NCBI GenBank assembly: GCA_964013565.1
Contig: CAXGWU010000036.1
Location: 1-29,227 of the forward strand
Length of the DNA stretch: 29,227 nucleotides
Source of the DNA: an uncultured Oligoflexia bacterium
GTDB lineage: Bacteria > Bdellovibrionota > UBA1018 > UBA6935
Direction of reading: 5' to 3'
Shown: in pieces, positions 5,459 through 25,385 of the stretch
Numbering within the stretch: the stretch's first letter is position 1
Layout of the letters: every line of letters begins with the position of its first letter
Notes under the pieces: generated by a model
Told to the model about the DNA's origin: nothing
Databases searched by the model: none
What the model saw: only the letters and a program-made list of their open reading frames with translations
Position numbers and translations under genes: made by a program

Positions 5459-5499
5459 CTTGGGTTGAGTTGTATGATTTGCTAATTCGAAAGGCTCAT

Positions 5500-6114
5500 A
5501 TGGAAAGTTTATTGAAGTTTCTTCTCGGTTTTAATGCTCCTATCCCTTATTTCTTCGTTTTTGGAATATTGCTTGCCTGTGGCTTGGGAATACCGATTCC
5601 TGAAGACATTACTTTATTTGCTGCAGGTGTGCTCTCCTATTATGGAAAGGCAAATGTATATGTCATGATTGCCATCGGCATGTTGGGGGTGATGCTGGGT
5701 GATTCAATGATTTTTTATCTTGGATCTAAGTATGGTGTTCGACTGACTGAAAACAAAAAGTTTCATAAAATCATTCCACCAGCTAAGTTTGAAAAAATGT
5801 CCGAAAGCCTTCGGGTGAGGGGAAACCGATTGATATTTTTTGCTCGATTTATGCCTGGATTTCGGGCCGCCGCTTTTTTCTCAGCAGGTACATTAGGTCT
5901 TCCTTATCGAGTGTTTTTTTTATTTGATGGAGTTGCGGCTTTGATTTCTGTTCCATCAATCATCTATAGCGTTTATTATTTTGGTGATCAGGTTGATCGT
6001 GTCATTCGTATTATCCAAGGGATTGAACATGGGATTGCAGGAGCAATCTTTTTGGGTATTTTATTTTTTGTAATGAAATGGATGATAAAGAAAAGGAAAC
6101 GACAGAGAGCTTAA
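5500..6114 (+). CDS. DedA/VTT (SNARE-associated) family membrane protein
   Basis: Shows the DedA pattern GLGIPIPEDITLFAAG ... FFARFMPGFRAAAFFSAG. I prefer the ATG at 5500 (MESLLKF) over the TTG at 5470 given in the ORF track. Confidence 0.8.
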   Translation: MESLLKFLLGFNAPIPYFFVFGILLACGLGIPIPEDITLFAAGVLSYYGKANVYVMIAIGMLGVMLGDSMIFYLGSKYGVRLTENKKFHKIIPPAKFEKMSESLRVRGNRLIFFARFMPGFRAAAFFSAGTLGLPYRVFFLFDGVAALISVPSIIYSVYYFGDQVDRVIRIIQGIEHGIAGAIFLGILFFVMKWMIKKRKRQRA

Positions 6115-6116
6115 GG

Positions 6117-7082
6117 ATGAGATTAATTTTAGTGTGCTTTTTTTTTATTTGTTTTTTTAATATGGGGTTTTCTTCGGGGCCAGCAAAACTAAAAGAAAAA
6201 ATAAAGTCGCTCGTGACTCCTAAAATGAGCTCTAAAGAGAAAAAACAATGGTGCCACTCTTTAGAACATTCGATTCATTTTTATCAATGGAAATGGGATT
6301 CTTGCAAAAAATTAGACTGGAAAGTTTTAGGTAAATCGGTTCAAAACCGTCCTCTCACTTATTTAACTTATGGTCCAGAGAATGCAAAAAATACAACTCT
6401 TATTTTTACGATGGTTCATTCTGATGAAATTACCCCGCTCTATATTGGTTTACGCCTGACCGATTGGTTGGAAGAACATGCTTCTTCGTTTACTAATCAA
6501 AGAGTGATTTTAGCACCTCTTGTTAATCCGGATGGTTTTTTTAGAAAAAGAAAAACTCGAGTGAATGCCAATAAAGTAGATGTAAATAGAAACTTTCCAA
6601 CAGCGGATTGGAATGATGATGCAATTGAATTATGGAAAAAAAAATTTCGTTCAAATCCACGTCGTTACCCTGGAAAACAAGCAAATTCTGAACCAGAAAC
6701 TCGGTTTCAGATTGCTTTGATTAAAAAATTTAAACCTCAAAAAATTCTTTCAGTTCACGCACCTCTAAATTTTATGGATTACGATGGACCGAATATTCTT
6801 TCACTTGCTAAATTTCCAAAAGAATACGTAAAAAAATGCCTTCAGCTTCGATCAAAGGTGAATGCGCGATCGGGAGGATTTTATCCAGGATCTTTAGGAA
6901 ATTACGCAGGACAAGAGCGATCCATTCCTACATTGACTCTTGAGCTACCTTCTGCAGATTACTCTAAAGGGTTAAAGTATTGGAATCAGTTTAAAAACGG
7001 AATTAAAACGGTGATTGAGTTTGAGGTTCCACCCACTTTACAAGGACTTCCTTCTAAAGAAAGTAAAAAACAATTTTTTTAG
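6117..7082 (+). CDS. secreted M14-family zinc carboxypeptidase/murein-peptide amidase-like protein
   Basis: M14 motifs appear in order: HSDE (HxxE zinc ligands), NPDG, VDVNRNFP, SEPET and SVHAP (third zinc His). A signal peptide (MRLILVCFFFICFF) follows the ATG at 6117, which has an AAGG Shine-Dalgarno. The track start at 6078 overlaps dedA. Confidence 0.75.
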   Translation: MRLILVCFFFICFFNMGFSSGPAKLKEKIKSLVTPKMSSKEKKQWCHSLEHSIHFYQWKWDSCKKLDWKVLGKSVQNRPLTYLTYGPENAKNTTLIFTMVHSDEITPLYIGLRLTDWLEEHASSFTNQRVILAPLVNPDGFFRKRKTRVNANKVDVNRNFPTADWNDDAIELWKKKFRSNPRRYPGKQANSEPETRFQIALIKKFKPQKILSVHAPLNFMDYDGPNILSLAKFPKEYVKKCLQLRSKVNARSGGFYPGSLGNYAGQERSIPTLTLELPSADYSKGLKYWNQFKNGIKTVIEFEVPPTLQGLPSKESKKQFF

Positions 7083-7090
7083 GTTAAAAA

Positions 7091-8557
7091 ATGAATAAAT
7101 CATTTATCTCTTTTTTATTTTTCTTTGGACTCGTTTTATTTGCCCACTCATTTTCATTAGGGCTTTCAGATGATGAAGCCTATTATTGGATTCTGTCACG
7201 ACAGTGGTCTTTAGGCAGTGAGTTTCACCCCCCCATGGTCGCCTGGTGGATTAAGATTGTGACTATGGTTTTTGGGGACCTTAGTGTGCGATTGCCGGCT
7301 ATTTTAACTTCTCTGTTTCTGGTCTGGGTTACTCGATTTTATGTACTCAATGAAGGGAAACCAGATCTTTTAAAGTTTTCTCATCAATGGATTTGGATAA
7401 GTTTACCTGGGCTTTTTGTGGGATCTTGGATGATGGTTCCTGATATTCCACTCTTTTTCTTTTGGGGAATTCTTCTTTTAGTTGGAAGAAAGTGGATCGA
7501 GCGTCGCTCTCTTTTACTTTTTTTTGTTATTCTTTTTTCATTTGCCGGGATGAATCTTTCCAAATTTTCTGGAGTTTTAATTCTACCTAGCCTTATTGCA
7601 TCATGGTTTTTTCTTTCTGACGAAACTCAGAGAGTTCGTACTACTTTTTATGGAGGGTTTGCCCTTTTCTTAGGCCTTATTTTTTCTTGGTCTATTATTA
7701 TTTATTGGAATTCAGCACATGAATGGATTGCTCTCAAATATCAGTTTATGGGGAGGCATGCGGGAGAGATCTCTTGGCTGAGGTATTTGAGGTTTTGGGG
7801 GATTCAGATCATTTTAGCTGGTCCTGTTCTTTTTCTTTTTAGCTTAAAGTTACCTGTATTTTTTTTAAAAAAGAAAAACAAAGGAGCTCTTTATTTATTG
7901 TTTTTAGCTCTCCCGCCTTTAATTGTTTATTTTCTACAGCCTCTTCGAGCAGAGTTTAAGCTTCATTGGACATTAGCTGCTTGGATTCCGTTATGGATTC
8001 TTTGGATTTTGGAAAATATCTCTAATCGGAGATGGTTTCGTATTCAAAATAGTTTTTCTGCTTTAGTAATTGTTTTTGTTTTTTTATCGGCTCATCTTCC
8101 GATTCTTCCGTTTTTTCATAAAGCTTTTTCAGATCGTCCTTGGAATCCTTTGTGGGACGTAACGGGTGATTTAGAAGGGTGGAGAGAGCTTCCTTCTCAT
8201 TTAAAGTCTTTAGGATATCAATTAGATGAGTGGGGCTTTGCAGGGAATCGTTATCAGACCGCATCACAAGCTGGATTTGCTTTGAGAGAGTATGGAGTTT
8301 CAGTTTGGGTGCCTCGGAAAGAAGGTGCACGATTTGATTGGTCAATTCCTCGTATTGTTAAAGATCCTGTATTTGATTTAACTCTTTTGAAAAAGACTCT
8401 CTTTTTTGGAGATCACCGATATAATGCTCCACCTTCTTTTTTGAAGGCCAGTTGTGAATCTATTCCATCTTTAGAGGTGAATCGGGGTTCCTATCGATCT
8501 AAAACGATTCTTATCTGGAAGTGTTTACCGAAGCTTTCTTTAGATGATCATTCCTAA
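7091..8557 (+). CDS. ArnT/PMT-like GT-C glycosyltransferase (family 39/83 type)
   Basis: 488 aa with at least 10 TM helices. The first loop motif LSDDEAYYWILSRQW...HPPMVAWWIK is characteristic of polyprenyl-phosphate-sugar-dependent GT-C enzymes. A soluble C-terminal domain is present. Confidence 0.7.
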   Translation: MNKSFISFLFFFGLVLFAHSFSLGLSDDEAYYWILSRQWSLGSEFHPPMVAWWIKIVTMVFGDLSVRLPAILTSLFLVWVTRFYVLNEGKPDLLKFSHQWIWISLPGLFVGSWMMVPDIPLFFFWGILLLVGRKWIERRSLLLFFVILFSFAGMNLSKFSGVLILPSLIASWFFLSDETQRVRTTFYGGFALFLGLIFSWSIIIYWNSAHEWIALKYQFMGRHAGEISWLRYLRFWGIQIILAGPVLFLFSLKLPVFFLKKKNKGALYLLFLALPPLIVYFLQPLRAEFKLHWTLAAWIPLWILWILENISNRRWFRIQNSFSALVIVFVFLSAHLPILPFFHKAFSDRPWNPLWDVTGDLEGWRELPSHLKSLGYQLDEWGFAGNRYQTASQAGFALREYGVSVWVPRKEGARFDWSIPRIVKDPVFDLTLLKKTLFFGDHRYNAPPSFLKASCESIPSLEVNRGSYRSKTILIWKCLPKLSLDDHS

Positions 8558-9350
8558 TCCAAGCGGTTTGATTTCGCCCAGAAAATGTGTTTTTAATTTG
8601 AAACCACCGATCTTTAAATGAAATCACTTCAAATGTAGTGCTGTCTTTGATTCGACTAATGACAGGATAGTGAAGTCCAGGTCCAGAACGCATTTTTACA
8701 TTTGGAACTGTTGTTTTTACAAAAAAACGGTTTTCAATTTTAGGGGATATCCTTTGTTTTTTTATTTTATTTTCAGTGTTTCTTTTAGAGCTTGCTTGTG
8801 TAGATTGAATTGTTTGAATGGGAGTATTTTTTTTGACTTCAGGAGTGAGTTCTACTCGACTCATTGAAATTTGTGGTTTTTCTGATTCAACTCTAAAAAT
8901 AAGATAAGCTCCGCTGATGATGGTCAAAGCAGCAGAAATACTGAGTGATACAGTGATGATATTTTTTTGGACCCAAGTTTGAATTTGATCTGTTTTTGAT
9001 GATTGCATGATATTAATTTCTGGTAATGGTTCAGGAAAAGAAGATTCTTTAGAAACAGACTTTACTTCTTTTTGGATTTTGGGTTTATTCATCCTTTCTC
9101 TAAAAGGAGGAGGGGTAGCTTTTGAAATTGTCCTTTTAGGTTGAGCAGGCTTTATTGTCGGTTGTGTACGAATTTCATGAAATTCCATGGGTTGTTTTAA
9201 ATTTGAATTTACTTTAATTGCCGTATGATTGGATTGTTTTATACATGAAAATCCGCCACATTGAATACAGCGTGTGAAAGTCCACCCATTAGGACTTTGT
9301 TTTTTTTCTACATGCATTTCACTTGAACAGTGAGGACAAGTCACTTTCAT
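8511..9350 (-). CDS. zinc-ribbon / single-TM / SH3b-domain protein
   Basis: N-terminal CPHC...CIQC (MJ0042-type zinc ribbon), a Pro/Lys-rich linker, the TM segment IITVSLSISAALTIISGAYLIF, and a C-terminal bacterial SH3-like sequence (VNVKMRSGPGLHYPVISRIKDSTTFEVISFKDRWFQIK). AAGGAG Shine-Dalgarno before the ATG. Confidence 0.6.
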   Translation of the reverse strand: MKVTCPHCSSEMHVEKKQSPNGWTFTRCIQCGGFSCIKQSNHTAIKVNSNLKQPMEFHEIRTQPTIKPAQPKRTISKATPPPFRERMNKPKIQKEVKSVSKESSFPEPLPEINIMQSSKTDQIQTWVQKNIITVSLSISAALTIISGAYLIFRVESEKPQISMSRVELTPEVKKNTPIQTIQSTQASSKRNTENKIKKQRISPKIENRFFVKTTVPNVKMRSGPGLHYPVISRIKDSTTFEVISFKDRWFQIKNTFSGRNQTAWIRNDHLKKASVNTSR

Positions 9351-9424: not shown

Positions 9425-10261
9425 TTAATTTCCGGAAGGAGTGGAGCTGATCTCTCTTTTTGGTTTAGAGGTCGAGTCAATGTTTTGAAGGGAAGGAGAG
9501 TCCCATGGAATATTTTCTACATGAGGTTCTAATACTTTTAAAACAACTCTACGATTTGTATCTAAAGCATTGATATCCCAACTTCCATCAGGATTACGTT
9601 CTTTTTTTTGTGGTCGAGTGGATCCATATCCAATTGCAAGAAGTTGAGTGGGATCAAATCCGGTGTCAATAAAACGTCTAAGTACTTGTGATGCGCGTGC
9701 TCCAGAAAGCTCCCAGTTCGATGGATAGATCCCGCTGAGAATAGGTCGACCATCGGTATGGCCTTCAACTACAATTTTATATTTTTTTTGTTCAGCGTCT
9801 TGACGTCCGAGTAGAGCGATCGTGAGCTTTTTTAAAATGTCCATTCCCTTTGGTTTGATGTTTGCACTCAAAGTATCAAAAAAGAACGTAGAATGAAAAG
9901 TGATCGTCGTTCCATTTGGATCTGAAAAAACAACAGCATCTTTTTCAATGCCTGCTTCTTGAATCACTTGTGATACAAATTTAGCAGTTTGTTCTCCCGC
10001 GGATTCATAATCTCCACCAAAGTGTTTAGCTAATCCTTCCTTTACTTTTTCATATCTAGGTGTATCAAAATTAGCTGTACTCATCATCATAATAAAAAAT
10101 GCACAAAGGAGTGTCATCAGGTCAGCGTATGAAGTTAACCAGATGGCTTCGTCCCCGTCCTCTCCTTTTCTCAAAGACTTCACTTCAGGTTTTTGGTGAG
10201 CGAGTTCTTCTTGAGTTTGTCGTGCTTTTTTTAAAAACTTTGAAATTGACAAGTTAAGCAA
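9425..10261 (-). CDS. motB: flagellar-type stator protein MotB (OmpA-like peptidoglycan-binding C-terminus)
   Basis: The plug/TM region AIWLTSYADLMTLLCAFFIMMM retains the channel Asp. The C-terminal OmpA-like motifs VEGHTDGRP...NWELSGARASQVLRRF are present. A TTG start overlaps the motA stop by 8 nt. Confidence 0.85.
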   Translation of the reverse strand: MLNLSISKFLKKARQTQEELAHQKPEVKSLRKGEDGDEAIWLTSYADLMTLLCAFFIMMMSTANFDTPRYEKVKEGLAKHFGGDYESAGEQTAKFVSQVIQEAGIEKDAVVFSDPNGTTITFHSTFFFDTLSANIKPKGMDILKKLTIALLGRQDAEQKKYKIVVEGHTDGRPILSGIYPSNWELSGARASQVLRRFIDTGFDPTQLLAIGYGSTRPQKKERNPDGSWDINALDTNRRVVLKVLEPHVENIPWDSPSLQNIDSTSKPKREISSTPSGN

Positions 10262-11036
10262 CCCTTCTCTCTATTCTTTCTTCTGGCATAAGAAAAGAAT
10301 TTAAACTTTCTTTCATTGCAAGTGGATTCACTTGTTTTTTTAATAAAATTGCACCTTCGACCATCATTCGTCGAAGAGCAATTTCTTCTTCAGTTCTTTC
10401 AGTCAAATTTTCTGCTATAGGAAGAAAAACTAAGTTAGCAATAGAGATTCCATAAAGTGTTCCAACTAGTCCAATAGACATTGCTGGCCCGATGAGTTTC
10501 TCACTCCCAGGTTTCCCTAGTTGTTGAAGAAGAGCGATCATTCCTAATGTGGTTGCAAGTAGTCCAAATGCAGGAGGAAATTTTCCAATGCTTTTGAACA
10601 TGTTTGCTTCACTCATATACTTTTTTTCAACTGTTTTTAATCTTTCTTCTAGAACTGAACGTATTTCTTGTTCTGTAAGAACTCCTGCTGCTACAAGAGA
10701 AACTCCTTCTTTTAAAAAAGGGTGACGAATACTGGGAATTGAATCTTTCAATGCGGATAGACCCAGTGAAGCTTTTTTATTAAGGTCTAGTAAGGTTTGA
10801 ACTGATTCTTGATAATTTACTTTATTTTTTCCTAAAACTCTAAAAAAGAAAATTTTTAAGAGAGAAATAATTTTTTTTATTGGAAAACTAATACTTGCTG
10901 CTGCTAGCGTTCCTCCACAAACAATGACTATCCCGTGAAAATTTAAGAAAAACATCAAGTCCATCCCGCTCTCTGCGAGAGATGCGACCATGACTCCAAC
11001 ACCTAGTAATACACCAAAAAGAGATGAAAAATTCAT
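10254..11036 (-). CDS. motA: flagellar-type stator protein MotA/PomA
   Basis: 4-TM MotA layout with a cytoplasmic loop of about 90 aa between TM2 and TM3. The conserved prolines are present (PPAFGLLATTLG and NLVFLPIA). I place the start at the ATG at 11036 (MNFSSLFGVLLG), 1 nt after the upstream stop. The track's 11120 start would overlap the cNMP gene. Confidence 0.85.
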   Translation of the reverse strand: MNFSSLFGVLLGVGVMVASLAESGMDLMFFLNFHGIVIVCGGTLAAASISFPIKKIISLLKIFFFRVLGKNKVNYQESVQTLLDLNKKASLGLSALKDSIPSIRHPFLKEGVSLVAAGVLTEQEIRSVLEERLKTVEKKYMSEANMFKSIGKFPPAFGLLATTLGMIALLQQLGKPGSEKLIGPAMSIGLVGTLYGISIANLVFLPIAENLTERTEEEIALRRMMVEGAILLKKQVNPLAMKESLNSFLMPEERIERRVA

Positions 11037-11037
11037 T

Positions 11038-11556
11038 TTATGCAGCCTCCTCGGAAGAGCCTTTTGTAGAAAGAGCTGTTTTCCAAAGTTGATATTGTGT
11101 AATGACGTAACTGTCATCAAGTTCCTTAAGTCGATTCACCACATGGTGAGCACAACTCTCGTAAAATTTAAGTTTTCTTTCGGTCGACTTGTTTAAAAAA
11201 GCCTGAAATGAATATTTTGAAATATAGAATAAAAGACATTCAGTGGTTGCTCGTACTGTTGCAGATCGAGGTCCGTCATCAATAAGTGAGAATTCCCCAA
11301 AAAAACCACCTCGATCAATTTGACCAACGTCGTAGGTATTTCCTGAGACTCGATTTGATTTGAATACGCCTACAGAACCATCCATGACAAGATACATTCC
11401 CCAACTCATTTCACCTTCGATTACAATGTTAGATAGAGCTTCGTACTGAATGAGTTTTCCTATTCCTAAAATTTCTTGGATTTCAGTTTCTGAAAAAATT
11501 TGCAAAAGACTGACTTCCTTAAGAGATTCAACTGACGGTTGTTTTTTGTTTACCAT
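11038..11556 (-). CDS. stand-alone cyclic-nucleotide-binding (CAP effector) domain protein
   Basis: 172 aa with the phosphate-binding-cassette-like segment GGFFGEFSLIDDGPRSATVRA inside a beta-roll context. There is no HTH or other output domain. Its start is embedded in the upstream stop (ATGGTAA). Confidence 0.8.
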   Translation of the reverse strand: MVNKKQPSVESLKEVSLLQIFSETEIQEILGIGKLIQYEALSNIVIEGEMSWGMYLVMDGSVGVFKSNRVSGNTYDVGQIDRGGFFGEFSLIDDGPRSATVRATTECLLFYISKYSFQAFLNKSTERKLKFYESCAHHVVNRLKELDDSYVITQYQLWKTALSTKGSSEEAA

Positions 11557-13871
11557 CCTGCCACCTTTTTAAATTCTTCATTGTTATTTGGATTTTGGCC
11601 TTCTGGTGTTAGATCTGCAGCAAACATTTTTTCATTAGTTTCAATGAGATTGATACTGCCATCGTTAGCCATTACTTTTACTCTGTTAAGTATTTTTCTT
11701 GAAATATTTTGATACTCATCTCTTGATACGTTATCAAGACCTTCAATTTCTTCTTGAAGTTCAATGACAAGCTCTTGAGGTGATTTAGCAAAAATCGCGT
11801 TTCGTACATGTTCGGTTGAACCTTTTAAGAAACGAATTAACTCTTCATGTTTTAATCCAAGAACGACTTCAAGAAGGTGGTTATCTCTAAGGTATGCAAG
11901 GGTGTCTACAGAAACTAACTTACTTTTTACTGCGTGAGCACTATCCGGATTTTTTGTATTTAGCATGCTCATTACACTTTTCTGAGTCTGGATATTTGCT
12001 CTTTCAAGAAGACTTACAAGTACGTCGGATCCTGGAAGTGCTTCTGTATTTAACTTAGGATTGTCACTTCTTTTCCGTTTTAACGCTACGGCTACGTTAT
12101 AGATATAGTCTTTTGGAAGGTGATCAATTCTTGAAAGCTCAGTAAGAAGTCGCATTTTGGTATCTTCATCCATTTGAGCATAGATTGCTGTTCTTTTCAT
12201 TGGGTCAGTCTGAGTAAGAACAATAGCTTTTACTGTTATTGATTCATTTCGAATCAACTCAAGAACTTGAAGTTTGTCCATTTCTGCAAGAAAGTCAAAT
12301 AGACTGGTGGATCGATGACCTAAGATAAACATTTTTGCTGCAATGGTTCTGTTGTGGAGACTTTTTAAAAGTTCTAGCTTATCGTTATCATCCATTTCTA
12401 CAGGGTTTTTAGCGTAATACTCCATCAAGTCTGATAGATCAGTTTGTAAGCTCGGGTCACGAAGCATGTCGACTACAATTGCTTCTCCAAAAAGTTCAAT
12501 GTAGCAAGCTGTAACTTCCACTCCTTCTTCCGTTAATATTCGGGAAAAAACTTGTTTCGCTACTCTCGGTTGTTCACCAAAAATCTGAGTTAATTCTGAT
12601 TGTAGTCTTTCAATTTCGTAACGAATTGCAACGGAATTGATATTCTCTAAACGCGAAGGAGGTTTAGCAAATGACTCATTTGTTTCTGGGGATTGATTTT
12701 TTCCATCTTGAATAAATCTGTGAATATTTTCATTAGGTCCTCTTTTAGGTCGATAGGTAGCCAGAGCAATGAAAATAAGAAGAGAGAGTACTGAAACTGC
12801 AAAAATAAGTGAGTAGATTTCAAATTCTTGAATTTGAGATTGAACAATATCTCCATCTTCAACACGCTCTATTTTTTCATAGTGTACAAACTTCTCACTT
12901 TTATTTTCTTTATTTTCATTTGTTTGATTGAGTTGAGAATTTGAATTAAACTTTTTTGAGCTGGTAAATAAATCCTGTTTGTTTTTAAAAAATTCTGAAT
13001 TGGACTGAGATTTAGAATCTTTACTTGTAGAAGAAGCAAGTCCTCGTCGTCCAGATACATTTACTCCAGAAGCAATTCCGTTAGTAAGTCCTTGAGGAAA
13101 AGAAATGGATTTGTGATCTAGGTATACATTTTTTAGAAATCCTGTTTTTAATTTAGCCATTTCTAAAAGACCATACTGTTCCTCTGGAGAAAGACTAGAG
13201 TCTGTAAGAATAGTTCCTTCAATCCTATTGATTTTTACTGCAACATCACCATCTTGTACAAATTCACCAATAGAACCATATTGGGCTTCTTCGGGATTGA
13301 CGGGATCTACTTTAACGTCATAATCACCGAGAAGACAGTGCTGAGGACAGAAACGTCCAATTAAGTCAGATAGGGCACTGGTAAATTCTTTACTTATTCT
13401 TTCTTTAATTTCGGCTACTTTTCTGGATGATGCAATGGGTTGAGGAAAGTGTGCTATTTTTGTTTCAATTTCTACTGGATATGGCAAGTCCTCAAAGTGT
13501 TGATCTATTAATTCAAGGAGTTTCTTTTTTGAGTTCGGTCCAACTAAATCACCAATGAGTAAATTTACTTTGACTTCACTTACTTCAATTTCTGGATTTC
13601 CACCATTTTGAAGATTAATGTCAAATCCTGGTTCGAGTTCATCAGGAACAGCAACAGTGACCTGAGCTTGTGAAGAAAGGAGTTTACATTGATCGTCACA
13701 GTATTTTTTTAAAATAGGTTCTATTACTTTTTTTACTTCAGAAATAGACTTTCTTTTGAGTTGGTCTGCATTTAAAGATGCACTTTGAGCAACTTTTGAT
13801 GTTCCCAAAATTATGATGAATAAAAATGACCATTGAGTTATTTTAATGAAGAAATTCCTTTTTCTTTTCAT
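11550..13871 (-). CDS. bitopic membrane protein: periplasmic tandem YscJ/FliF-like ring-building modules + TM + cytoplasmic FliG-like domain
   Basis: 773 aa. Residues 1-30 are a signal peptide or N-terminal anchor. Residues 44-129 and 154-246 are two internally similar modules, each with a CxxxC pair. Residues 270-330 form an S/N/K-rich linker, and residues 352-373 are a TM helix. Residues 432-745 are colinear by eye with the FliG N/M/C domains (for example LFDFLAEMDKLQVLELIRNESITVKAIVLTQTDPMKRTAIYAQMDEDTKMRLLTELSRI). The existence of the CDS is certain; the domain calls are inference. Confidence 0.6.
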   Translation of the reverse strand: MKRKRNFFIKITQWSFLFIIILGTSKVAQSASLNADQLKRKSISEVKKVIEPILKKYCDDQCKLLSSQAQVTVAVPDELEPGFDINLQNGGNPEIEVSEVKVNLLIGDLVGPNSKKKLLELIDQHFEDLPYPVEIETKIAHFPQPIASSRKVAEIKERISKEFTSALSDLIGRFCPQHCLLGDYDVKVDPVNPEEAQYGSIGEFVQDGDVAVKINRIEGTILTDSSLSPEEQYGLLEMAKLKTGFLKNVYLDHKSISFPQGLTNGIASGVNVSGRRGLASSTSKDSKSQSNSEFFKNKQDLFTSSKKFNSNSQLNQTNENKENKSEKFVHYEKIERVEDGDIVQSQIQEFEIYSLIFAVSVLSLLIFIALATYRPKRGPNENIHRFIQDGKNQSPETNESFAKPPSRLENINSVAIRYEIERLQSELTQIFGEQPRVAKQVFSRILTEEGVEVTACYIELFGEAIVVDMLRDPSLQTDLSDLMEYYAKNPVEMDDNDKLELLKSLHNRTIAAKMFILGHRSTSLFDFLAEMDKLQVLELIRNESITVKAIVLTQTDPMKRTAIYAQMDEDTKMRLLTELSRIDHLPKDYIYNVAVALKRKRSDNPKLNTEALPGSDVLVSLLERANIQTQKSVMSMLNTKNPDSAHAVKSKLVSVDTLAYLRDNHLLEVVLGLKHEELIRFLKGSTEHVRNAIFAKSPQELVIELQEEIEGLDNVSRDEYQNISRKILNRVKVMANDGSINLIETNEKMFAADLTPEGQNPNNNEEFKKVAGW

Positions 13872-13873
13872 TT

Positions 13874-14593
13874 TTAATTACTCCCTCTTAAGGTTAATTT
13901 TTTCTTTTTTGATTGTATAAATTTTTTGAGAGACTCATTATTAGGGTCAAATTCAACAGACTGTTCCCAAGATCGCATTGCTAATTCGGAGTAGCCAAGA
14001 CGTTCTAATAGCGTTCCTCTCATTTCATAAAGTTTGGGGTCAGTTGGGTAGCTTTTAATCATTTCATCTGTTTCTAGTAATCCAACTTCATATCGTTTGT
14101 TTCTATAGAGTTGCTTGATGTAGTCGATTTGAGCTAGATAGCTCGACTGACGTTTAGGTTGAGCTTCAGGAGGTGTAACAAGGCCTAGTTCATTTTCAAT
14201 ATTACTTCTCTTCCAGTCATTCTCTGGAATGCCTTCTGGAAGTTTTTCGATGATTTCGTGATCTGCAGTAGAGGGTTTTATTTTTTTATAGTCAGGGTTA
14301 ATTTGATTTTTTTGATTGGATGCAAGAGTCCTTTGTCCTACTAGAGTAGCATCCATTGGAACTACAAATTCAGTCATTTGATTTGTTTCTCTGGGAAGTT
14401 CAACTTCAACTGACTTCTGTCCTTCTTTTGATCTCAATATGATATTTGTCTCTTTTTCACCTTCGAAGAATGAATTACCAAAAGGATTTTCGATCATTGG
14501 AATGGTTTCAGTCTTTGTAGACGCACAAGAATTTCCAATAAGAATAATGAGAAGAGAAGTGATGCCTTTATTTAGATATTTCATCGATTTCAT
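13874..14593 (-). CDS. TPR-repeat putative lipoprotein
   Basis: 239 aa. The signal peptide ends IGNSC (Cys23), which is lipobox-like but non-canonical. C-terminal TPR repeats are visible (YRNKRYEVGLLETDEMIKSYPTDPKLYEMRGTLLERLGYSELAMRSWEQSVEFDPNN). Confidence 0.65.
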   Translation of the reverse strand: MKSMKYLNKGITSLLIILIGNSCASTKTETIPMIENPFGNSFFEGEKETNIILRSKEGQKSVEVELPRETNQMTEFVVPMDATLVGQRTLASNQKNQINPDYKKIKPSTADHEIIEKLPEGIPENDWKRSNIENELGLVTPPEAQPKRQSSYLAQIDYIKQLYRNKRYEVGLLETDEMIKSYPTDPKLYEMRGTLLERLGYSELAMRSWEQSVEFDPNNESLKKFIQSKKKKLTLRGSN

Positions 14594-14595
14594 CC

Positions 14596-15798
14596 TTAAA
14601 ATAGTGCGCTTACGCCCACGCCTCCTTCAATTCCAGTGAGGGTTCCTACAGCAGTTCCATCTAAAAATGCAGTTGCTGGTGGTCGGTACCCAATATTTGC
14701 ATTGACTCCCCAGTGTTTTCCAAGTCTCCATTCATATCCACCGCGAATCAATCCACCTAAAAACCCTGATGTGTAAGTTCCACCAATTCCAACAAATATA
14801 CTTCCTCGAATTTTGTTATAGTTTTCTAAATTTCCGATGAGATTCCAGGCGTGCATAAAAAGAAGAGAAAGATTAAATCCGTTCCACACATCAACAGTGG
14901 ATGTATCTGTAGAAGTGCTAAAGAAAGAGCTTGCACTTCTAAAGTAGTCTAATTCAAATCCAACTTCTTTTTTTCGATTATCGTAGCGTTCCATCATGCG
15001 GAAACCAAGACCAATAGTTCCGTTGTATTCGTTTAAATTTCTTTCAAACATATAATAGAGGATCACTCGGTACTGTAAAGTGGGTTCATAATCCGCTTGA
15101 TGTCTTGCTTGATCAACTTGTGAGTAATCAACTCCACGTCTAAAAGCAGCTGCACGAGAAGTTTCTGAATTATATGTTCTAGACCATATAATTGTTTGGT
15201 TTTCTGCATCAGTGATATAGAGAGAGAGTAAGAGTCCTGTGGGCAAATAGGCAAACGCAATATCTAAAAAATGTTTCACAGAGTGTTTTTTTGCAAGTCG
15301 AGCGAGTTGCTCAGGGTGACTTTCTGGAGACGAAATAACAACGTTATTTCCACTCAGACGAGCTGTTCTTGATCGACATGGAATACATTGAATCATTCTG
15401 GTTTGTGAGTTTTTTAGAATTCGCTCAGTTGTGAGTAACTCTAAATGACTCTTAAAGGATTCTGGAACATTTTCACTGGTGACGACATTTCGAACGGATA
15501 GATCAGTTAAGCCCCTTACATCGCCACTTTTGACATCATACTCAAAATCAGAAAGTACATCTTCAAGGACCTGGTAAAAACTTCTTTTCTTTTCGTCATC
15601 TTGTTCTTCGTTAGAAGAAATGAGCTTAGACTTCGTAGTTGGATCAGGAGTGATTTCTTTGTTCTCTGGTGATTCTTCTGCAAAAGTAGAGGTACTTGTT
15701 GTGAACAAGACGAGGAGAATTATCTTTCCCAAAAACTGAAAGGGGAGAGTCACTCGCTTTTTAATGAGTTTATCTGTTTTGTGGGTTTTTATATTCAT
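14596..15798 (-). CDS. putative outer-membrane protein (N-terminal soluble domain + C-terminal beta-barrel-like region)
   Basis: The signal peptide LGKIILLVLFTTSTSTFA-EE follows the ATG at 15798. The C-terminal 170 aa or so are Gly/aromatic-rich with alternating hydrophobicity and end in ...GVGVSALF, the terminal Phe signature of OM proteins. The start is uncertain: the track start at 15843 would give a 35-aa n-region. Confidence 0.5.
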   Translation of the reverse strand: MNIKTHKTDKLIKKRVTLPFQFLGKIILLVLFTTSTSTFAEESPENKEITPDPTTKSKLISSNEEQDDEKKRSFYQVLEDVLSDFEYDVKSGDVRGLTDLSVRNVVTSENVPESFKSHLELLTTERILKNSQTRMIQCIPCRSRTARLSGNNVVISSPESHPEQLARLAKKHSVKHFLDIAFAYLPTGLLLSLYITDAENQTIIWSRTYNSETSRAAAFRRGVDYSQVDQARHQADYEPTLQYRVILYYMFERNLNEYNGTIGLGFRMMERYDNRKKEVGFELDYFRSASSFFSTSTDTSTVDVWNGFNLSLLFMHAWNLIGNLENYNKIRGSIFVGIGGTYTSGFLGGLIRGGYEWRLGKHWGVNANIGYRPPATAFLDGTAVGTLTGIEGGVGVSALF

Positions 15799-15830
15799 AG
15801 TGGTATAAACGATTCCTTCCTCTAGATGAC

Positions 15831-15857
15831 TTTTCGGACACATCCCCTGTCTTTTTA
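15831..15857 (-). promoter_or_regulatory. sigma-28 (FliA)-type promoter candidate for the stator/FliG-like operon
   Basis: The minus strand reads TAAA-N15-TCCGAAAA against the consensus TAAA-N15-GCCGATAA. It has the same architecture as the fliC promoter at 19210-19236. It lies about 33 nt upstream of the ATG at 15798. Confidence 0.4.
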
Positions 15858-15922: not shown

Positions 15923-16753
15923 ATGTTCCACAAAAGAAGGAAAATAAATTTAAATAAGATAAAGAAGAGTGTTTTTTTGACGTTTTTTTCGGTTCTTCAT
16001 GTTCAGTGTTCGTCGACACCGGTGACTCCTATTGAGCCATTACCGGAAGTTCCAGAGTATCTTCATGCTCCTCATCCTGTTGGTTTTGATTTTGCAGATT
16101 TAGAGCTTATTTTTCATAAGGCTTCTTCTCCAACACCTGAAAAATTGGCAGGTTGTAATGAAAAGTTTGAAAGTCTAAAAGTAGTCACTCAAAAAAATGA
16201 AGACATATATAGAGTCACCAGAGAGTTCATTAAAAATGAACCAGTTGAGTTTCATTGGTGTTTTTATCATAAGATCTTCACTCTTCATGAGACATTAAAG
16301 AATACCCCTACTTGGCGTGGACGACAGAAAGAAGTTATTGAAGCTTTTGAGTTTTTAGTTCCAGTCGCTCGAGGGTTTCGTAAAGAATTTCATGATCCAC
16401 GCTATCTTCGATGGGCGTCTCGATATTATATTCAGTTAAGTAAAACTGTTTTTTATAAAAACTTAGTTCTTTCTCCACAAGCAGTATCAGATCAGTATGG
16501 TGAAATTTCTACTCCTTATGCTTTATGGAAAAAGTCAGAACCTCAAAAAGAGGCTTCTCAGGCAGAAATTAAAAATGTAGAAATACAAAGCAACACAAAT
16601 TTAAAAGAACCAAAAGAGGAACTTCGTGTTCCTGCTGGATTAGAAGATCAAATTGATGCTGAGTTAGAAACAGAGTTAAGTAGTGATCCTTTTTTAAATG
16701 AAGCCCTTCCAGAGTTAGATTCCAACAAATCAGCTGAGGTTATTGAAAAATAA
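15923..16753 (+). CDS. hypothetical secreted protein/putative lipoprotein with acidic C-terminal tail
   Basis: 276-aa ORF with an N-terminal hydrophobic segment ending at Cys29 (SVLHVQCSS). I recognised no family motif. It is divergent from the stator operon. Confidence 0.55.
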   Translation: MFHKRRKINLNKIKKSVFLTFFSVLHVQCSSTPVTPIEPLPEVPEYLHAPHPVGFDFADLELIFHKASSPTPEKLAGCNEKFESLKVVTQKNEDIYRVTREFIKNEPVEFHWCFYHKIFTLHETLKNTPTWRGRQKEVIEAFEFLVPVARGFRKEFHDPRYLRWASRYYIQLSKTVFYKNLVLSPQAVSDQYGEISTPYALWKKSEPQKEASQAEIKNVEIQSNTNLKEPKEELRVPAGLEDQIDAELETELSSDPFLNEALPELDSNKSAEVIEK

Positions 16754-16921: not shown

Positions 16922-17887
16922 TTGTATTTATTGATGAATAAGAGTCTTTTTGACGTAAAAATGTGGGTTAAAGACATGCAGCAAGGGAAGCGCATAGCCC
17001 TTGCTCGAATCATTACGAAGATTGAGAACCGAGATGTCGAAGTTCCTGAGTTGATGAAAGAGATTTTTCCTCTGACAGGAAAAGCGGAGGTTCTTGGTGT
17101 GACCGGTCCTCCTGGAGCAGGAAAGTCTACCCTTGTTGATCAGTTGATCTATGCGAGTCGTGCCGAAGGTAAGAAAGTAGCGGTTATTGCTGTTGATCCC
17201 TCAAGTCCATTTTCTGGGGGTGCAATTCTTGGAGATCGCATTCGAATGCAAAGGCATTATGGTGATACAGGAGTTTATATTCGAAGTTTAGGAACTCGTG
17301 GAAAACATGGGGGACTATCGCATTCGACAAAAGAAGCAGTTATGGCTTTGGATGCAGCGGGATTTGATCGAATTATTGTAGAAACTGCAGGTGTTGGTCA
17401 GACCGAATTGGCAATTTTGAAATTAGCACAAACTGTTTTGGTGGTCCTAGTGCCAGAGAGCGGGGATTCAATTCAGGTCATGAAAGCTGGATTAATGGAG
17501 ATTGCAGATCTTTTTGTAGTGAATAAATCAGATCGACCTGCTGCGGATCAATTAGTAAGAGAGCTTGTCGTAATGGTGGGTATGAACAGTGACCATGAAG
17601 CAAAATGGTCTGTACCTGTATTGAAGACAGAAGCGGTTAAGTCTGTAGGAATTGATGCGGTAATGAAGAGTCTTTCAGAGCATCAATCCTATTTAGATGA
17701 GTCCCATTTGAGAAATCAAAAGAGAACTTCTTTTTTGTCTGAGGAAATCGAAGATATCTTGTTAGAAAAATTTACTCAAAAAATTAAAGAATCTCTTTCT
17801 TCAAAAAAAGGAAAAGAAATTCTTTCAGATTTAACATCAGGAAAAATCACTCCTTATGATGCGAGTGGTCTAATTTTCAAAATCTAA
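16922..17887 (+). CDS. meaB: methylmalonyl-CoA mutase-associated G-protein MeaB/ArgK (SIMIBI GTPase)
   Basis: P-loop GVTGPPGAGKSTLV, switch motif VETAGVGQ, and NKSD specificity motif. The length and order match MeaB. The start is uncertain (TTG 16922 versus ATG 16934). Confidence 0.85.
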   Translation: MYLLMNKSLFDVKMWVKDMQQGKRIALARIITKIENRDVEVPELMKEIFPLTGKAEVLGVTGPPGAGKSTLVDQLIYASRAEGKKVAVIAVDPSSPFSGGAILGDRIRMQRHYGDTGVYIRSLGTRGKHGGLSHSTKEAVMALDAAGFDRIIVETAGVGQTELAILKLAQTVLVVLVPESGDSIQVMKAGLMEIADLFVVNKSDRPAADQLVRELVVMVGMNSDHEAKWSVPVLKTEAVKSVGIDAVMKSLSEHQSYLDESHLRNQKRTSFLSEEIEDILLEKFTQKIKESLSSKKGKEILSDLTSGKITPYDASGLIFKI

Positions 17888-19209: not shown

Positions 19210-19236
19210 TAAAGTATTTACGCAGTGCTCCGATAT
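19210..19236 (+). promoter_or_regulatory. sigma-28 (FliA)-type promoter for flagellin 2
   Basis: TAAA (19210-19213), a 15-nt spacer, then TCCGATAT (19229-19236), against the consensus TAAA-N15-GCCGATAA. It sits immediately after the upstream terminator T-run. Confidence 0.6.
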
Positions 19237-25165: not shown

Positions 25166-25206
25166 TTAAAAGCTAAGGATGGGCTTTTTTCTGTCAAGGA
25201 GGACGG

Positions 25207-25383: not shown

Positions 25384-25385
25384 GC

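What the first reader, a model, noticed from the sequence alone, without database searches (positions are those of the whole stretch)
9425..15857. Translationally coupled operon pairing a MotAB stator with a FliG-like membrane protein, a cNMP sensor, a TPR lipoprotein and an OM barrel candidate
**Seen in sequence.** Six minus-strand CDS run head to tail:
- OM-barrel candidate (15798-14596)
- TPR lipoprotein (14593-13874)
- 773-aa FliG-like bitopic protein (13871-11550)
- cNMP-binding protein (11556-11038)
- MotA (11036-10254)
- MotB (10261-9425)

The junctions are 2-nt gap, 2-nt gap, 7-nt overlap (ATGGTAA), 1-nt gap and 8-nt overlap. A TAAA-N15-TCCGAAAA element sits upstream. MotB keeps the channel Asp (SYADLMTLL) and an OmpA-like C-terminus. 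MotA has the 4-TM MotA/PomA layout with both conserved prolines. No fliF, fliM/N, flhA/B, fliPQR, rod or hook genes are in the window, and the filament genes form a separate cluster 2.4 kb away.

**Established knowledge.** MotA5B2-type complexes are ion-driven rotary motors. Their known outputs are FliG, TonB, TolA, GldM/PorM, GltG/J and the ZorA tail.

**Inference.** A stator encoded next to a protein that combines a periplasmic ring-like domain with a FliG-like cytoplasmic domain, plus OM-proximal partners and a cyclic-nucleotide sensor, suggests one of two things. It could be (a) a minimal, export-apparatus-free rotor/stator machine spanning the envelope. Or it could be (b) a lineage-specific stator scaffold and control module of the canonical flagellum, comparable in logic to MotX/MotY, PflA/PflB or FlgP. 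I do not recognise this gene combination as a described system.
Basis: partly seen in the sequence, partly recalled or inferred. Interest (0 to 1): 0.9.

Follow-up and report, generated by a model that had tools for sequence, protein, structure and literature searches.

The report
Flagellar-type motor module without a flagellum
An uncultured group of predatory-type bacteria carries a conserved operon with its own flagellar-type stator (MotA/MotB), a single membrane protein that joins FliF-like and FliG-like rotor parts, and two outer-membrane partners, which looks like an undescribed second motor derived from the flagellar one.

Summary
Six tightly packed minus-strand genes (9425-15798) encode:
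- an outer-membrane protein (an 8-stranded barrel plus a TolB-N/LpoB-like periplasmic domain);
- a TPR lipoprotein;
- a 773-aa protein, described below;
- a cNMP-binding protein;
- MotA and MotB.

The 773-aa protein has a signal peptide, two ring-building-motif-like modules whose best structural matches are the flagellar MS-ring protein FliF, one TM helix, and a FliG-like cytoplasmic part (FliG_M and FliG_C above Pfam thresholds).

The five-gene core (barrel, TPR, FliF/FliG-like, MotA, MotB) is syntenic in 88 species-level Bdellovibrionota genomes. It recurs, rearranged, in Silvanigrellales-type relatives. The cNMP gene is accessory.

Canonical stator-rotor charges are changed on both partners, and the FliM-binding EHPQR motif is lost. 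A FliA (sigma-28)-type promoter precedes the operon in 37/66 loci, as it does at flagellin genes.

The best reading is a dedicated rotor-stator pair that spans the envelope without an export apparatus, expressed in the motile phase. A role as an accessory ring of the flagellar motor is not excluded. I found no prior description; the closest precedent is the chlamydial FliF-FliG fusion.

The parts
15831..15857 (-). FliA (sigma-28)-type promoter-like element, TAAAAAG-N13-TCCGAAAA. It is followed by a GAGGAAGGA ribosome-binding region at 15814-15822.
   Evidence: The pattern [ACT]AAG-N13-17-CCGA[AT]N is found upstream of the first gene in 37/66 loci (5.1 expected) and upstream of flagellin genes in 27/52 loci (2.6 expected). 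It is at background before all other genes. It matches the B. bacteriovorus FliA consensus TTAAG-N16-CCGATA (PMC3627812).
14596..15798 (-). g1: 400-aa outer-membrane protein. It has a signal peptide, a periplasmic alpha/beta domain (about residues 74-210, with invariant C138xxC141) and a C-terminal 8-stranded beta-barrel (241-399) ending in Phe.
   Evidence: AF2 model with pLDDT 75. In Foldseek the barrel matches OmpW, OmpX, NspA and OmpA (TMt 0.5-0.66), and the N-domain matches TolB-N, LpoB-C and PelC. There is no Pfam family. It is 46-63% identical across loci. The Silvanigrellales-type locus has a homologue at 24% identity, E 7e-36.
13874..14593 (-). g2: 239-aa lipoprotein with a C-terminal TPR region.
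   Evidence: A lipobox (…GC[AS][ST]) is conserved in the family. The TPR hits are weak. The C-terminal part is conserved in L086 (32% identity, E 9e-11). The gene is syntenic in all loci.
11550..13871 (-). g3: 773-aa bitopic protein, laid out as follows.
- signal peptide
- two RBM-like modules (about residues 35-140 and 146-256), each with an invariant CxxxC
- a disordered S/N/K-rich linker (264-337)
- an invariant EKIERVExGD juxtamembrane motif
- a TM helix (about 352-375)
- a FliG-like cytoplasmic part (from about 474 to 745; FliG_M 535-604, FliG_C 636-742)
   Evidence: Pfam. PDB phmmer hits to FliG structures 1lkv, 3ajc and 3hjl. AF2 model. Foldseek top hits are FliF MS rings: 7bk0 at E 3e-6, 8zds, 6scn and 8z5v. 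Family invariants.
11038..11556 (-). g4: 172-aa stand-alone cyclic-nucleotide-binding protein. It is accessory. Its start overlaps the g3 stop codon by 7 nt.
   Evidence: cNMP_binding, E 7e-16. The phosphate-binding cassette FGE[ML]SL..D..PRSATV is invariant in 62 homologues. The gene is present in 60/71 loci and absent from the divergent subclade and from L086.
10254..11036 (-). g5: MotA, 260 aa, of the PomA/MotP flagellar stator type.
   Evidence: MotA_ExbB, E 1e-20. Best NCBIfam matches are MotP, MotA and PomA, all below the equivalog cut-offs. PDB: C. sporogenes MotA at E 3e-36 and PomA at E 9e-26. Both prolines are invariant. The PomA R88 and E96 positions are not conserved: S/A/G and N/K/S/Q.
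9425..10261 (-). g6: MotB, 278 aa. It has a TTG start, the channel Asp D47, a plug region and an OmpA-like peptidoglycan-binding domain.
   Evidence: MotB_plug, E 1e-13, and OmpA, E 1e-16. PDB: C. sporogenes MotB at E 3e-24. D47 is invariant in 66 homologues.
8511..9350 (-). g7, a possible accessory gene: 279-aa protein with an N-terminal zinc ribbon, a TM segment and a C-terminal bacterial SH3 domain.
   Evidence: SH3_3, E 1e-7, and a weak Zn_ribbon hit. A CPHC…C..C motif is conserved. The gene is downstream of MotB in 40/54 loci. No terminator-like site lies between MotB and this gene. It is absent from L086.
15923..16753 (+). A divergently transcribed 276-aa lipoprotein that is a conserved neighbour. 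Whether it belongs to the system is uncertain.
   Evidence: It is present upstream in 51/56 loci. The lipobox and a PEVPxYVxVPHPxG motif are conserved. It has no Pfam or NCBIfam family. It is not found in L086.

Best explanation
**What it is.** The operon encodes a self-contained, flagellar-derived rotor-stator module that spans the cell envelope and has no type III export apparatus.

**Shown.**
- MotA/MotB are a flagellar-type (PomA/MotP-like) ion-driven stator. They have the channel Asp, both prolines, a plug and a peptidoglycan anchor.
- g3 combines, in one polypeptide, FliF-like periplasmic ring-building-type modules, a TM helix and FliG-like domains that include the torque-helix domain.
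- g1 and g2 are outer-membrane-associated proteins.
- The five genes travel together across Bdellovibrionota, even when their order changes.

**Inferred mechanism.**
- Ion flow turns the MotA pentamer around the peptidoglycan-anchored MotB dimer.
- MotA pushes on the now acidic torque helix of the FliG-like domain. The interface is private and has diverged from the canonical MotA-FliG one.
- g3 oligomerises through its RBM-like modules, probably as a ring, and is turned or displaced in the inner membrane.
- Its periplasmic part couples this movement or force to the TPR lipoprotein and to the periplasmic domain of the OM barrel protein.
- Because the FliM-binding motif is lost, control is not through the CheY/FliM switch. 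In most lineages the translationally coupled cNMP-binding protein is the likely modulator.
- A FliA-type promoter places expression in the motile (attack) phase.

**Not known.** The cellular output. It could be outer-membrane or sheath dynamics, surface movement, or envelope work at the pole.
For: **Domain identities.**
- Pfam, NCBIfam and PDB sequence matches.
- g3 periplasmic model: two alpha-beta-beta-alpha-beta modules with pLDDT above 90. Top Foldseek hits are FliF rings from Salmonella and Vibrio, E 3e-6 to 6e-4, probability 1.00.
- g1 model: an 8-stranded barrel plus a TolB-N/LpoB-like domain.

**Linkage.**
- 88 species-level genomes carry the module and 80 loci were fetched. The order is the same wherever the contig allows.
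- Distant relatives of 603 and 969 aa also sit beside MotA-MotB, but in the order MotA-MotB-FliG-like. g1 and g2 homologues are present in L086.
- Junctions are tight or overlapping, and there are no internal promoter motifs.

**Private interface.**
- E. coli FliG R281 corresponds to D/E in 71/72 family members and in all distant long forms.
- D288/D289 are kept as E/D.
- R297 is S/G/N, or D/E in distant forms.
- The PomA R88 position is S/A/G. The PomA E96 position is N/K/S/Q, and Lys in both the window and L086.
- EHPQ…R becomes an invariant E-S-x-T…E.

**Other points.**
- A further MotAB-type pair lies beside the module in L059.
- FliA-type promoter.
- Engineered FliF-FliG fusions assemble rings and function (PMC4768692; titles).
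Against: - No oligomer or complex could be modelled, so ring formation and MotA-g3 contact are inferred.
- The FliF resemblance is structural only. There is no Pfam YscJ_FliF hit. No FliF appears among 154 profile hits in 1.84 billion proteins. hhalign against E. coli FliF gives E 0.14. The RBM fold is common, and OsmC-like folds also score near 1e-3.
- Whole genomes could not be inspected. It is therefore not shown that the carriers also have canonical fliF/fliG and another flagellar motAB.
- The FliA-type promoter and frequent proximity to flagellin genes (29/82 loci) fit a flagellar role equally well.
- The MotA loop alignment contains a one-residue gap. It also keeps nearby basic (K87, K88) and acidic (D/E98) residues, so loss of canonical pairing is not certain.
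- The output is unknown.
Confidence: 0.5

Rival explanations
1. The module is a lineage-specific accessory of the canonical flagellar motor. It would be comparable in logic to MotX/MotY, FlgP/PflA/PflB or spirochaete collar proteins.

The g3 ring, the TPR lipoprotein and the OM protein would form extra periplasmic and membrane rings around the basal body of the thick (probably sheathed) polar flagellum. They would recruit or hold this particular stator set, and the FliG-like domain would dock MotA.
For: - The FliA-type promoter is shared with flagellin genes.
- Flagellin genes lie within the held DNA in 29/82 loci, and next to the distant 603-aa variant.
- TPR proteins and OM-anchored PelC/LpoB-like folds are typical building blocks of flagellar disks and scaffolds (my own knowledge of Campylobacter and Vibrio motors).
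- Carriers FG-1 and FG-2 have a single thick polar flagellum (PMC13200544).
- In B. bacteriovorus, three motAB pairs all serve one flagellum (cited in PMC3526173).
Against: - In Bdellovibrio, FliA drives about two thirds of all attack-phase promoters, many of them non-flagellar. The promoter is therefore not specific.
- The proximity to flagellin genes is part of a long block of general synteny that also includes XerC, VTT, M14 and MeaB. It is absent in L086.
- A static FliG-like ring touching MotA on the side opposite the C-ring has no precedent.
- The interface residues of this MotA differ from those needed for canonical FliG.
Confidence: 0.3
2. The module is a regulatory decoy or brake. The membrane-anchored FliG-like protein would sequester or park stator units away from the flagellar rotor, under control of the cNMP-binding protein. 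This would tune swimming speed or stop the motor, for example on prey or surface contact.
For: - The cNMP-binding gene is translationally coupled to g3. Its binding cassette is intact.
- Known motor brakes and clutches (YcgR, MotI, EpsE; my own knowledge) act at the MotA-FliG interface.
- Expression is linked to the motile phase.
Against: - The cNMP gene is missing from 11 of 71 loci and from the distant modules, while the rest is kept.
- A decoy would not need conserved periplasmic RBM-like modules, an OM barrel protein and a lipoprotein.
- A decoy for flagellar stators should keep the canonical FliG charges, and these are changed.
- The module brings its own MotAB.
Confidence: 0.1
3. The module is a force transducer of the Tol/Ton/Agl-Glt type rather than a rotating ring. 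g3 would act as a single bitopic 'arm', like TonB, TolA or GltG/J. MotAB would pull or twist this arm through its FliG-like domain. That would energise the OM barrel protein and lipoprotein, for gliding, OM integrity or uptake.
For: - The overall parts list (IM motor, bitopic IM protein, TPR lipoprotein, OM barrel) resembles the Tol-Pal and Agl-Glt systems (my own knowledge).
- The g1 periplasmic domain matches the TolB N-domain and LpoB.
- A long disordered linker sits in the periplasmic part of g3.
- A second, analogous cluster in L059 has a bitopic protein and a small barrel-like protein.
Against: - The stator is flagellar-type with a plug, not TolQ/ExbB-type (TolQ E 0.047).
- g3 interacts through a cytoplasmic FliG-like domain, whereas TonB and TolA couple through their TM helix inside the motor.
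- RBM-like modules and FliG domains are ring-formers in every characterised case.
Confidence: 0.1

Closest known systems
Flagellar rotor-stator core (FliF MS ring + FliG + MotA5B2/PomA5B2)
   Same: - The stator is of the flagellar (PomA/MotP) type, with the channel Asp, both prolines, a plug and an OmpA-like anchor.
- FliG_M and FliG_C domains are present, with an acidic pair at the D288/D289 positions.
- The periplasmic modules are structurally most similar to FliF RBMs.
- The promoter is FliA-type.
   Different: - The FliF-like and FliG-like parts are one polypeptide, with a cleavable-looking signal peptide and a single TM. FliF has two TMs.
- There are only two RBM-like modules, and no sequence similarity to FliF.
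- The EHPQR (FliM-binding) motif is lost.
- R281 is D/E, and the MotA R90/E98 equivalents are not kept.
- No export gate, rod, hook or C-ring genes are in the operon.
- Dedicated OM barrel and TPR lipoprotein partners are present.
Chlamydiaceae FliF-FliG fusion protein (Bergeron 2016, PMC4768692)
   Same: It is a natural single polypeptide with two RBM-type periplasmic modules, followed by a TM and a FliG-like cytoplasmic region. It occurs outside a complete flagellar gene set.
   Different: - The chlamydial protein is about 330 aa and has only a FliG_M-like region, with no torque-helix domain.
- It keeps sequence similarity to SctJ/FliF RBM2.
- It has no MotAB partner, and is proposed to work with the injectisome.
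- The protein here has FliG M and C (and part of N), and a dedicated stator.
Engineered FliF-FliG fusions of Salmonella and Vibrio (PDB 8z4d/8z4g; Francis 1992, as cited in PMC4768692)
   Same: They show that covalent FliF-FliG fusion is compatible with ring assembly and rotation. The FliG part of 8z4d matches g3 residues 515-742.
   Different: They are artificial and made from canonical FliF and FliG. They work inside a complete flagellum.
Periplasmic scaffolds of high-torque motors (MotX/MotY, FlgT/FlgP/FlgO, PflA/PflB)
   Same: They are lineage-specific OM-associated and TPR proteins encoded with or near stator genes. The PelC/LpoB-like and TPR folds are of the same general kinds.
   Different: - None of them contains FliG-like or FliF-like domains.
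- None comes with a stator whose rotor-facing residues have diverged.
- No sequence similarity to them was detected.
Other 5:2 motor systems (TolQRA-Pal, ExbBD-TonB, AglRQS-Glt, GldLM, ZorAB)
   Same: In each, an ion-driven MotAB-family motor is coupled to an envelope-spanning partner set that includes OM proteins and TPR proteins or lipoproteins.
   Different: - Those motors belong to the non-flagellar branch, or have a long ZorA tail.
- Their outputs couple through TM or periplasmic contacts, not through a FliG-like cytoplasmic domain.
- PADLOC finds no ZorA, ZorC or ZorD.

Membership tests
Flagellar stator MotA/MotB (PomAB/MotPS type) | MotA_ExbB domain with a four-TM layout and the two conserved prolines (E. 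coli P173, P222) | tested here: met
   Pfam E 1e-20. P155 and P206 are invariant in 69 homologues. Full-length alignment to solved MotA/PomA chains.
Flagellar stator MotA/MotB (PomAB/MotPS type) | MotB channel Asp (E. coli D32), plug region and OmpA-like peptidoglycan-binding domain | tested here: met
   D47 is invariant in 66 homologues. MotB_plug E 1e-13 and OmpA E 1e-16. PDB MotB matches.
Flagellar stator MotA/MotB (PomAB/MotPS type) | Conserved cytoplasmic-loop charges that pair with FliG (E. coli R90/E98; PomA R88/E96) | tested here: not met
   The PomA R88 position is S/A/G and the E96 position is N/K/S/Q (K97 in the window). The neighbouring K87, K88 and D/E98 are conserved. The C. sporogenes MotA sequence gives the same register.
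Flagellar stator MotA/MotB (PomAB/MotPS type) | Score above the NCBIfam equivalog cut-offs for MotA/MotP/PomA and MotB/MotS/MotD | tested here: not met
   Best MotA model scores 156.9 bits against a cut-off of 394. Best MotB model scores 128.3 against 283.
Flagellar stator MotA/MotB (PomAB/MotPS type) | Drives rotation of the flagellar rotor | not testable with these tools
   This needs genetics or imaging in a carrier organism.
FliG (flagellar motor switch protein) | FliG_M and FliG_C domains | tested here: met
   Pfam scores of 32.7 and 54.2 bits, above the cut-offs of 25 and 23.3. phmmer hits to 1lkv, 3ajc, 4fhr and 3hjl, E 5e-12 to 1e-9.
FliG (flagellar motor switch protein) | Equivalog-level similarity (TIGR00207) and a soluble protein of about 330 aa | tested here: not met
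   61.6 bits against a cut-off of 226.7. The protein is 773 aa, with a signal peptide, a periplasmic half and a TM helix.
FliG (flagellar motor switch protein) | EHPQR motif that binds FliM | tested here: not met
   E125 is kept, but H126 is S, P127 is L/I, Q128 is T and R160 is E. All of these are invariant or nearly so in 72 members.
FliG (flagellar motor switch protein) | Torque-helix charge pattern K264, R281, D288, D289, R297 | tested here: not met
   K264 is K in 62/72 members. R281 is D/E in 71/72. D288/D289 are E/D and E. R297 is S/G/N. Distant relatives keep the acid at the R281 position.
FliF (MS-ring protein) | Sequence membership (YscJ_FliF domains) | tested here: not met
   No Pfam or NCBIfam FliF hit. 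No FliF among 154 profile hits. hhalign E 0.14.
FliF (MS-ring protein) | Periplasmic ring-building motifs (alpha-beta-beta-alpha-beta) | tested here: met
   Two such modules are predicted with pLDDT above 90. FliF chains are the top Foldseek hits, E 3e-6 to 6e-4. This rests on a predicted structure only.
FliF (MS-ring protein) | Three RBMs with a beta-collar, two TM helices and a C-terminal FliG-binding tail | tested here: not met
   There are two modules, no collar-like insertion, a signal-peptide-like N-terminus and a single TM. The FliG-like part is fused directly.
FliF (MS-ring protein) | Assembles into a ring of about 34 subunits | not testable with these tools
Zorya anti-phage system | ZorA with a long cytoplasmic tail, plus ZorC/ZorD or ZorE/F/G | tested here: not met
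   No PADLOC hit for MotA or for g1-g3. There are only generic ZorB/MotB matches.
Tol-Pal / TonB / Agl-Glt type motors | TolQ/ExbB-type A subunit | tested here: not met
   TolQ model E 0.047, 13 bits. Flagellar models score E 1e-46 to 1e-17.
Cyclic-nucleotide-binding (CAP effector) domain proteins | Beta-roll with a phosphate-binding cassette (G-E … R-[ST]-A) | tested here: met
   Pfam E 7e-16. The cassette is invariant in 62 homologues. Which ligand it binds was not tested.
Small (8-stranded) outer-membrane beta-barrels (OmpA/OmpW/OmpX-like) | Signal peptide, eight antiparallel strands and a C-terminal aromatic residue | tested here: met
   AF2 predicts eight strands across residues 241-399. 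Foldseek matches OmpW, OmpX, NspA and OmpA. The terminal Phe is nearly invariant. This rests on prediction only.

The most novel reading that the evidence does not exclude
This is a previously unrecognised kind of bacterial rotary machine. It would be a flagellar MS-ring/FliG-ring plus stator that has shed the export apparatus, axial structures and switch complex. It would use ion-driven rotation of a membrane ring to drive an outer-membrane-anchored output (g1/g2). That would make it a new output class for MotA5B2 motors and the mirror image of the injectisome, which kept export and lost the motor.
Probability: 0.35. Interest if true: 0.92.

Novelty: new variant of a known kind. Interest (0 to 1): 0.8.

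Why it matters
The known outputs of MotAB-family 5:2 motors are few: FliG, TonB, TolA, GldM, GltG/J and the ZorA tail.

A conserved module in which a flagellar-type stator is paired with its own membrane-embedded FliF/FliG-like partner and outer-membrane proteins would add to that list. It would be either a new output or a new layer of flagellar motor architecture.

It would also bear on how the flagellar motor evolved. Rotor and stator could exist, or persist, as a unit independent of type III export.

It offers a natural experiment in rotor-stator specificity, because the interface charges are changed on both partners. It also offers a compact system for reconstitution, since one gene encodes the whole rotor.

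All proteins of the operon are currently annotated 'hypothetical' or mis-annotated as 'FliG'.

Tried and rejected
TAAA-N14-16-NCCGANAN is found upstream of g1 in only 4/66 loci. Reading the upstream sequences showed that the conserved -35 is T(C/T/A)AAG, which led to the pattern tested.
- **E. coli MotA as reference.** It gave a misregistered loop alignment. I repeated the analysis with PomA-type references.
- **Sequence homology to FliF.** Rejected.
- **The ~600-aa hits of the periplasmic profile.** I suspected they were canonical FliF. They are shorter FliG_C-containing relatives.
- **The 578-aa protein of the second L059 cluster.** It shows no detectable similarity to the FliG-like family, so it is reported only as an analogous arrangement.
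- **Zorya or another defence system.** Rejected.
- **Provenance.** A look-up of the window's own contig by exact protein failed. Provenance came from cluster members instead.
- **Literature.** Morehouse 2011 on the three Bdellovibrio motAB pairs is not held.
- **Cultured carriers.** The last homology search found none.
- **Whole-genome census.** Counting fliF, fliG and motAB in carriers could not be done with the available tools.

Full report
**1. Observation**

The six minus-strand ORFs exist at the coordinates given. Their junctions are as described: 2-nt gap, 2-nt gap, 7-nt overlap, 1-nt gap and 8-nt overlap.

Pfam places these domains:
- FliG_M (535-604) and FliG_C (636-742) in the 773-aa protein, both above the gathering thresholds;
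- a cNMP_binding domain in the 172-aa protein;
- MotA_ExbB in the 260-aa protein;
- MotB_plug plus OmpA in the 278-aa protein.

NCBIfam ranks flagellar MotP/MotA/PomA and MotD/MotS/MotB models first, but all score below their equivalog cut-offs. The fliG equivalog scores 61.6 bits against a cut-off of 226.7.

The rest of the window carries two flagellin genes, fliD and fliS, but no basal-body, export or switch genes.

The window comes from a marine Tara Oceans MAG labelled Bdellovibrionaceae/Pseudobdellovibrionaceae. All six products are annotated there as 'hypothetical protein'.

**2. The 773-aa protein (g3)**

The cytoplasmic half matches solved FliG structures by sequence:
- T. maritima FliG middle and C-terminal domains, E 5e-12;
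- A. aeolicus full-length FliG, residues 56-327, E 1e-9.

For the N-terminal 396 residues I built a 21-sequence alignment and predicted the structure. Residues 40-260 have pLDDT mostly above 90. They form two tandem alpha-beta-beta-alpha-beta modules, which is the topology of ring-building motifs. After them come a disordered S/N/K-rich linker (264-337) and a helix that contains the TM segment.

The best Foldseek matches in the PDB are flagellar MS-ring FliF chains:
- 7bk0, E 3e-6;
- 8zds, 4.5e-6;
- 6scn, 1.3e-5;
- Vibrio 8z5v, 6.5e-4.

All have probability 1.00. The T3SS proteins YscD and PrgK/H rank lower. TM-scores are low because the relative placement of the modules differs.

There is no sequence-level link to FliF:
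- a profile of the periplasmic half finds only 154 proteins among 1.84 billion representatives, and none of those tested is FliF;
- hhalign against E. coli FliF is not significant.

So g3 is best described as FliF-like by predicted fold, fused through one TM helix to a FliG-like cytoplasmic part. It is not a FliF or a FliG orthologue.

**3. The other proteins**

- **g1.** It is predicted to have a periplasmic alpha/beta domain with an invariant CxxC, followed by eight beta-strands ending in Phe. In Foldseek the barrel matches OmpW, OmpX, NspA and OmpA. The N-domain matches the TolB N-domain, the LpoB C-domain, GNA1162 and PelC.
- **g2.** It has a conserved lipobox and a C-terminal TPR region.
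- **g4.** Its phosphate-binding cassette is invariant.
- **MotA.** It aligns over its full length with solved flagellar stators: C. sporogenes MotA at E 3e-36 and PomA at 9e-26.
- **MotB.** It matches C. sporogenes MotB at E 3e-24.

**4. Conservation**

The g3 family is large and uniform in the protein database. There are 169 hits, and the 120 listed are nearly all 730-840 aa with FliG_M plus FliG_C.

A scan of one genome per species found 88 carriers. All are Bdellovibrionota-type MAGs (a few are mislabelled), plus the magnetotactic FG-1 and FG-2 genomes.

tblastn of every window protein against the 80 loci shows the order g1-g2-g3-(g4)-MotA-MotB wherever the contig allows. Across loci:
- the cNMP gene is present in 60 of 71 loci, and missing from a divergent subclade;
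- a divergently transcribed lipoprotein gene is present in 51 of 56 loci;
- the downstream zinc-ribbon/SH3 gene is present in 40 of 54 loci.

The exhaustive profile search revealed two further size classes of the g3 superfamily. One is about 570-615 aa with one periplasmic module. The other is about 910-990 aa. Nine of the ten representatives tested have FliG_C, FliG_M or both.

Their genomic contexts again contain MotA and MotB, but in the order MotA-MotB-FliG-like. The 969-aa type is labelled Silvanigrellales. There, recognisable g1 (E 7e-36) and g2 (E 9e-11) homologues precede MotA, and there is no cNMP gene.

The core is therefore five genes. Their association survives rearrangement and identities as low as 24-32%. 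This is strong evidence that they work together.

**5. Rotor-stator interface**

In 72 family members:

| E. coli FliG position | In the family |
|---|---|
| R281 | D/E in 71 of 72 |
| D288/D289 | E/D and E |
| K264 | mostly K |
| R297 | S/G/N, followed by a nearly invariant Arg |
| EHPQ…R (binds FliM) | invariant E-S-x-T…E |

The distant long forms also carry D/E at the R281 position.

On MotA the PomA R88 position is S/A/G and the PomA E96 position is N/K/S/Q. It is Lys in the window and in the distant L086 MotA. Adjacent K87/K88 and D/E98 are conserved.

The channel Asp of MotB and both MotA prolines are invariant.

I read this as an interface that has changed on both partners. That fits a stator dedicated to g3 rather than to canonical FliG.

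**6. Regulation**

The upstream sequences do share T(C/T/A)AAG-N~15-CCGA(A/T), followed by a strong GAGGAAGGAGCC ribosome-binding region.

The common pattern occurs:
- upstream of g1 in 37 of 66 loci (5.1 expected);
- upstream of flagellin genes in 27 of 52 loci (2.6 expected);
- at background before every other gene, including g2 to g7.

It matches the FliA consensus TTAAG-N16-CCGATA that was mapped in B. bacteriovorus. There FliA controls about two thirds of attack-phase promoters, many of them non-flagellar (PMC3627812).

The operon is therefore probably one FliA-dependent transcript of the motile phase. This does not prove a flagellar function.

In the window the element lies inside the longer 415-aa ORF. 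That supports the 15798 start.

**7. Is the module's MotAB simply the flagellar stator?**

This could not be settled, because whole genomes could not be searched.

In L059 a second MotAB-type pair lies 8 kb away, between the divergent lipoprotein gene and g1. It is flanked by a TPR protein, a 578-aa bitopic protein and a small beta-rich protein. The 578-aa protein shows no detectable similarity to g3.

Published work reports three motAB pairs in B. bacteriovorus HD100, all serving the single flagellum, and one pair in H. marinus SJ. Neither species appeared among the carriers, but that scan only catches close relatives.

FG-1 and FG-2, which are carriers, have one thick polar flagellum.

**8. 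Comparison with known systems**

The closest natural precedent is the Chlamydiaceae FliF-FliG fusion. It has two RBMs and a FliG_M-like tail, is about 330 aa, and has no stator (PMC4768692).

Engineered FliF-FliG fusions assemble and function.

The module is not Zorya and not TolQ/ExbB-type.

I found no description of this gene combination in the held literature. That library is incomplete.

**9. Verdict**

The best explanation (confidence 0.5) is a dedicated, export-free, flagellar-derived rotor-stator module. It would couple ion flow to an outer-membrane-anchored partner set.

The main rival (0.3) is an accessory ring system of the flagellar motor.

Either way it is a new variant of a known kind of machine. 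It is conserved in about 90 species and currently unannotated.

Noticed in passing
L059:3668-8076: A second MotAB-type cluster sits between the divergent lipoprotein gene and g1. Its order is [197-aa TPR_16 protein][MotA-like 243 aa][MotB-like 284 aa with plug and OmpA][578-aa protein with signal peptide, TM and a helical cytoplasmic part][199-aa beta-rich protein ending in DFDF]. The layout is the same as the module's, but the 578-aa protein has no detectable similarity to the FliG-like family.
   Followed up: partly
window 11550-13871 (g3 residues 58-62 and 175-179); window 14596-15798 (g1 residues 138-141): The periplasmic parts carry invariant cysteine pairs: CxxxC at the end of the first helix of each g3 module, and CxxC in the g1 N-domain. 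In two homologues the first g3 pair is spaced CX9C. That argues for disulfides rather than a metal site. Their role is unexplained.
   Followed up: no
window 12830-12871 (g3 residues ~332-346): The most conserved periplasmic stretch of g3 is the juxtamembrane motif EKIERVExGDAVQxEL, just before the TM helix and after a disordered linker. It may be a contact site for the MotB periplasmic linker or plug, but this was not tested.
   Followed up: no
window 19210-19236 (+ strand): TAAAGTATTTACGCAGTGCTCCGATAT lies about 280 nt upstream of the second flagellin gene (19515). It looks like a FliA-type promoter. In related loci the first flagellin of each pair carries AAGTCTAAAG-N15-16-ACCGAWW about 150-200 nt upstream, which implies long 5' leaders.
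   Followed up: partly
window 10254-11120 and 14596-15843: Public annotation of the same MAG uses longer starts. MotA is given as 287 aa (the window's longest ORF is a 288-aa TTG ORF that overlaps g4), and g1 as 415 aa. Alignment to solved MotA chains and the promoter position favour 260 aa and 400 aa.
   Followed up: partly
L065 and L066 (Bdellovibrionota bacterium FG-1): The FG-1 assembly holds two copies of the g1-g2-g3 region on two contigs. Both are cut at the contig end inside g3. They could be two paralogous modules or two strains in the sorted-cell assembly.
   Followed up: no
window 4532-8557 and 16922-17887: A block of unrelated genes keeps its position around the module in many loci: a XerC-like recombinase, a VTT-domain protein, an M14 carboxypeptidase, a PMT_2 glycosyltransferase and a MeaB GTPase. 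The proximity of the module to flagellin genes is therefore partly general synteny.
   Followed up: partly
window 20956-21708 and 23613-27179: The filament cluster contains a metallophosphoesterase between the flagellins and fliD. After fliS it has a 142-aa protein with no family, a 375-aa TPR protein and a 597-aa protein with a glycosyltransferase-9 region. These may be flagellin-modification or filament-assembly factors.
   Followed up: no
one search hits P0345, P0348, P0355, P0359 (contig of P0345): Short relatives of about 600 aa have one periplasmic module and a weak FliG_C or MgtE_N signal. They sit after MotA-MotB and are followed by 311-aa and 178-aa proteins of unknown kind, with a flagellin gene next door. 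This is a third architecture of the same superfamily.
   Followed up: partly
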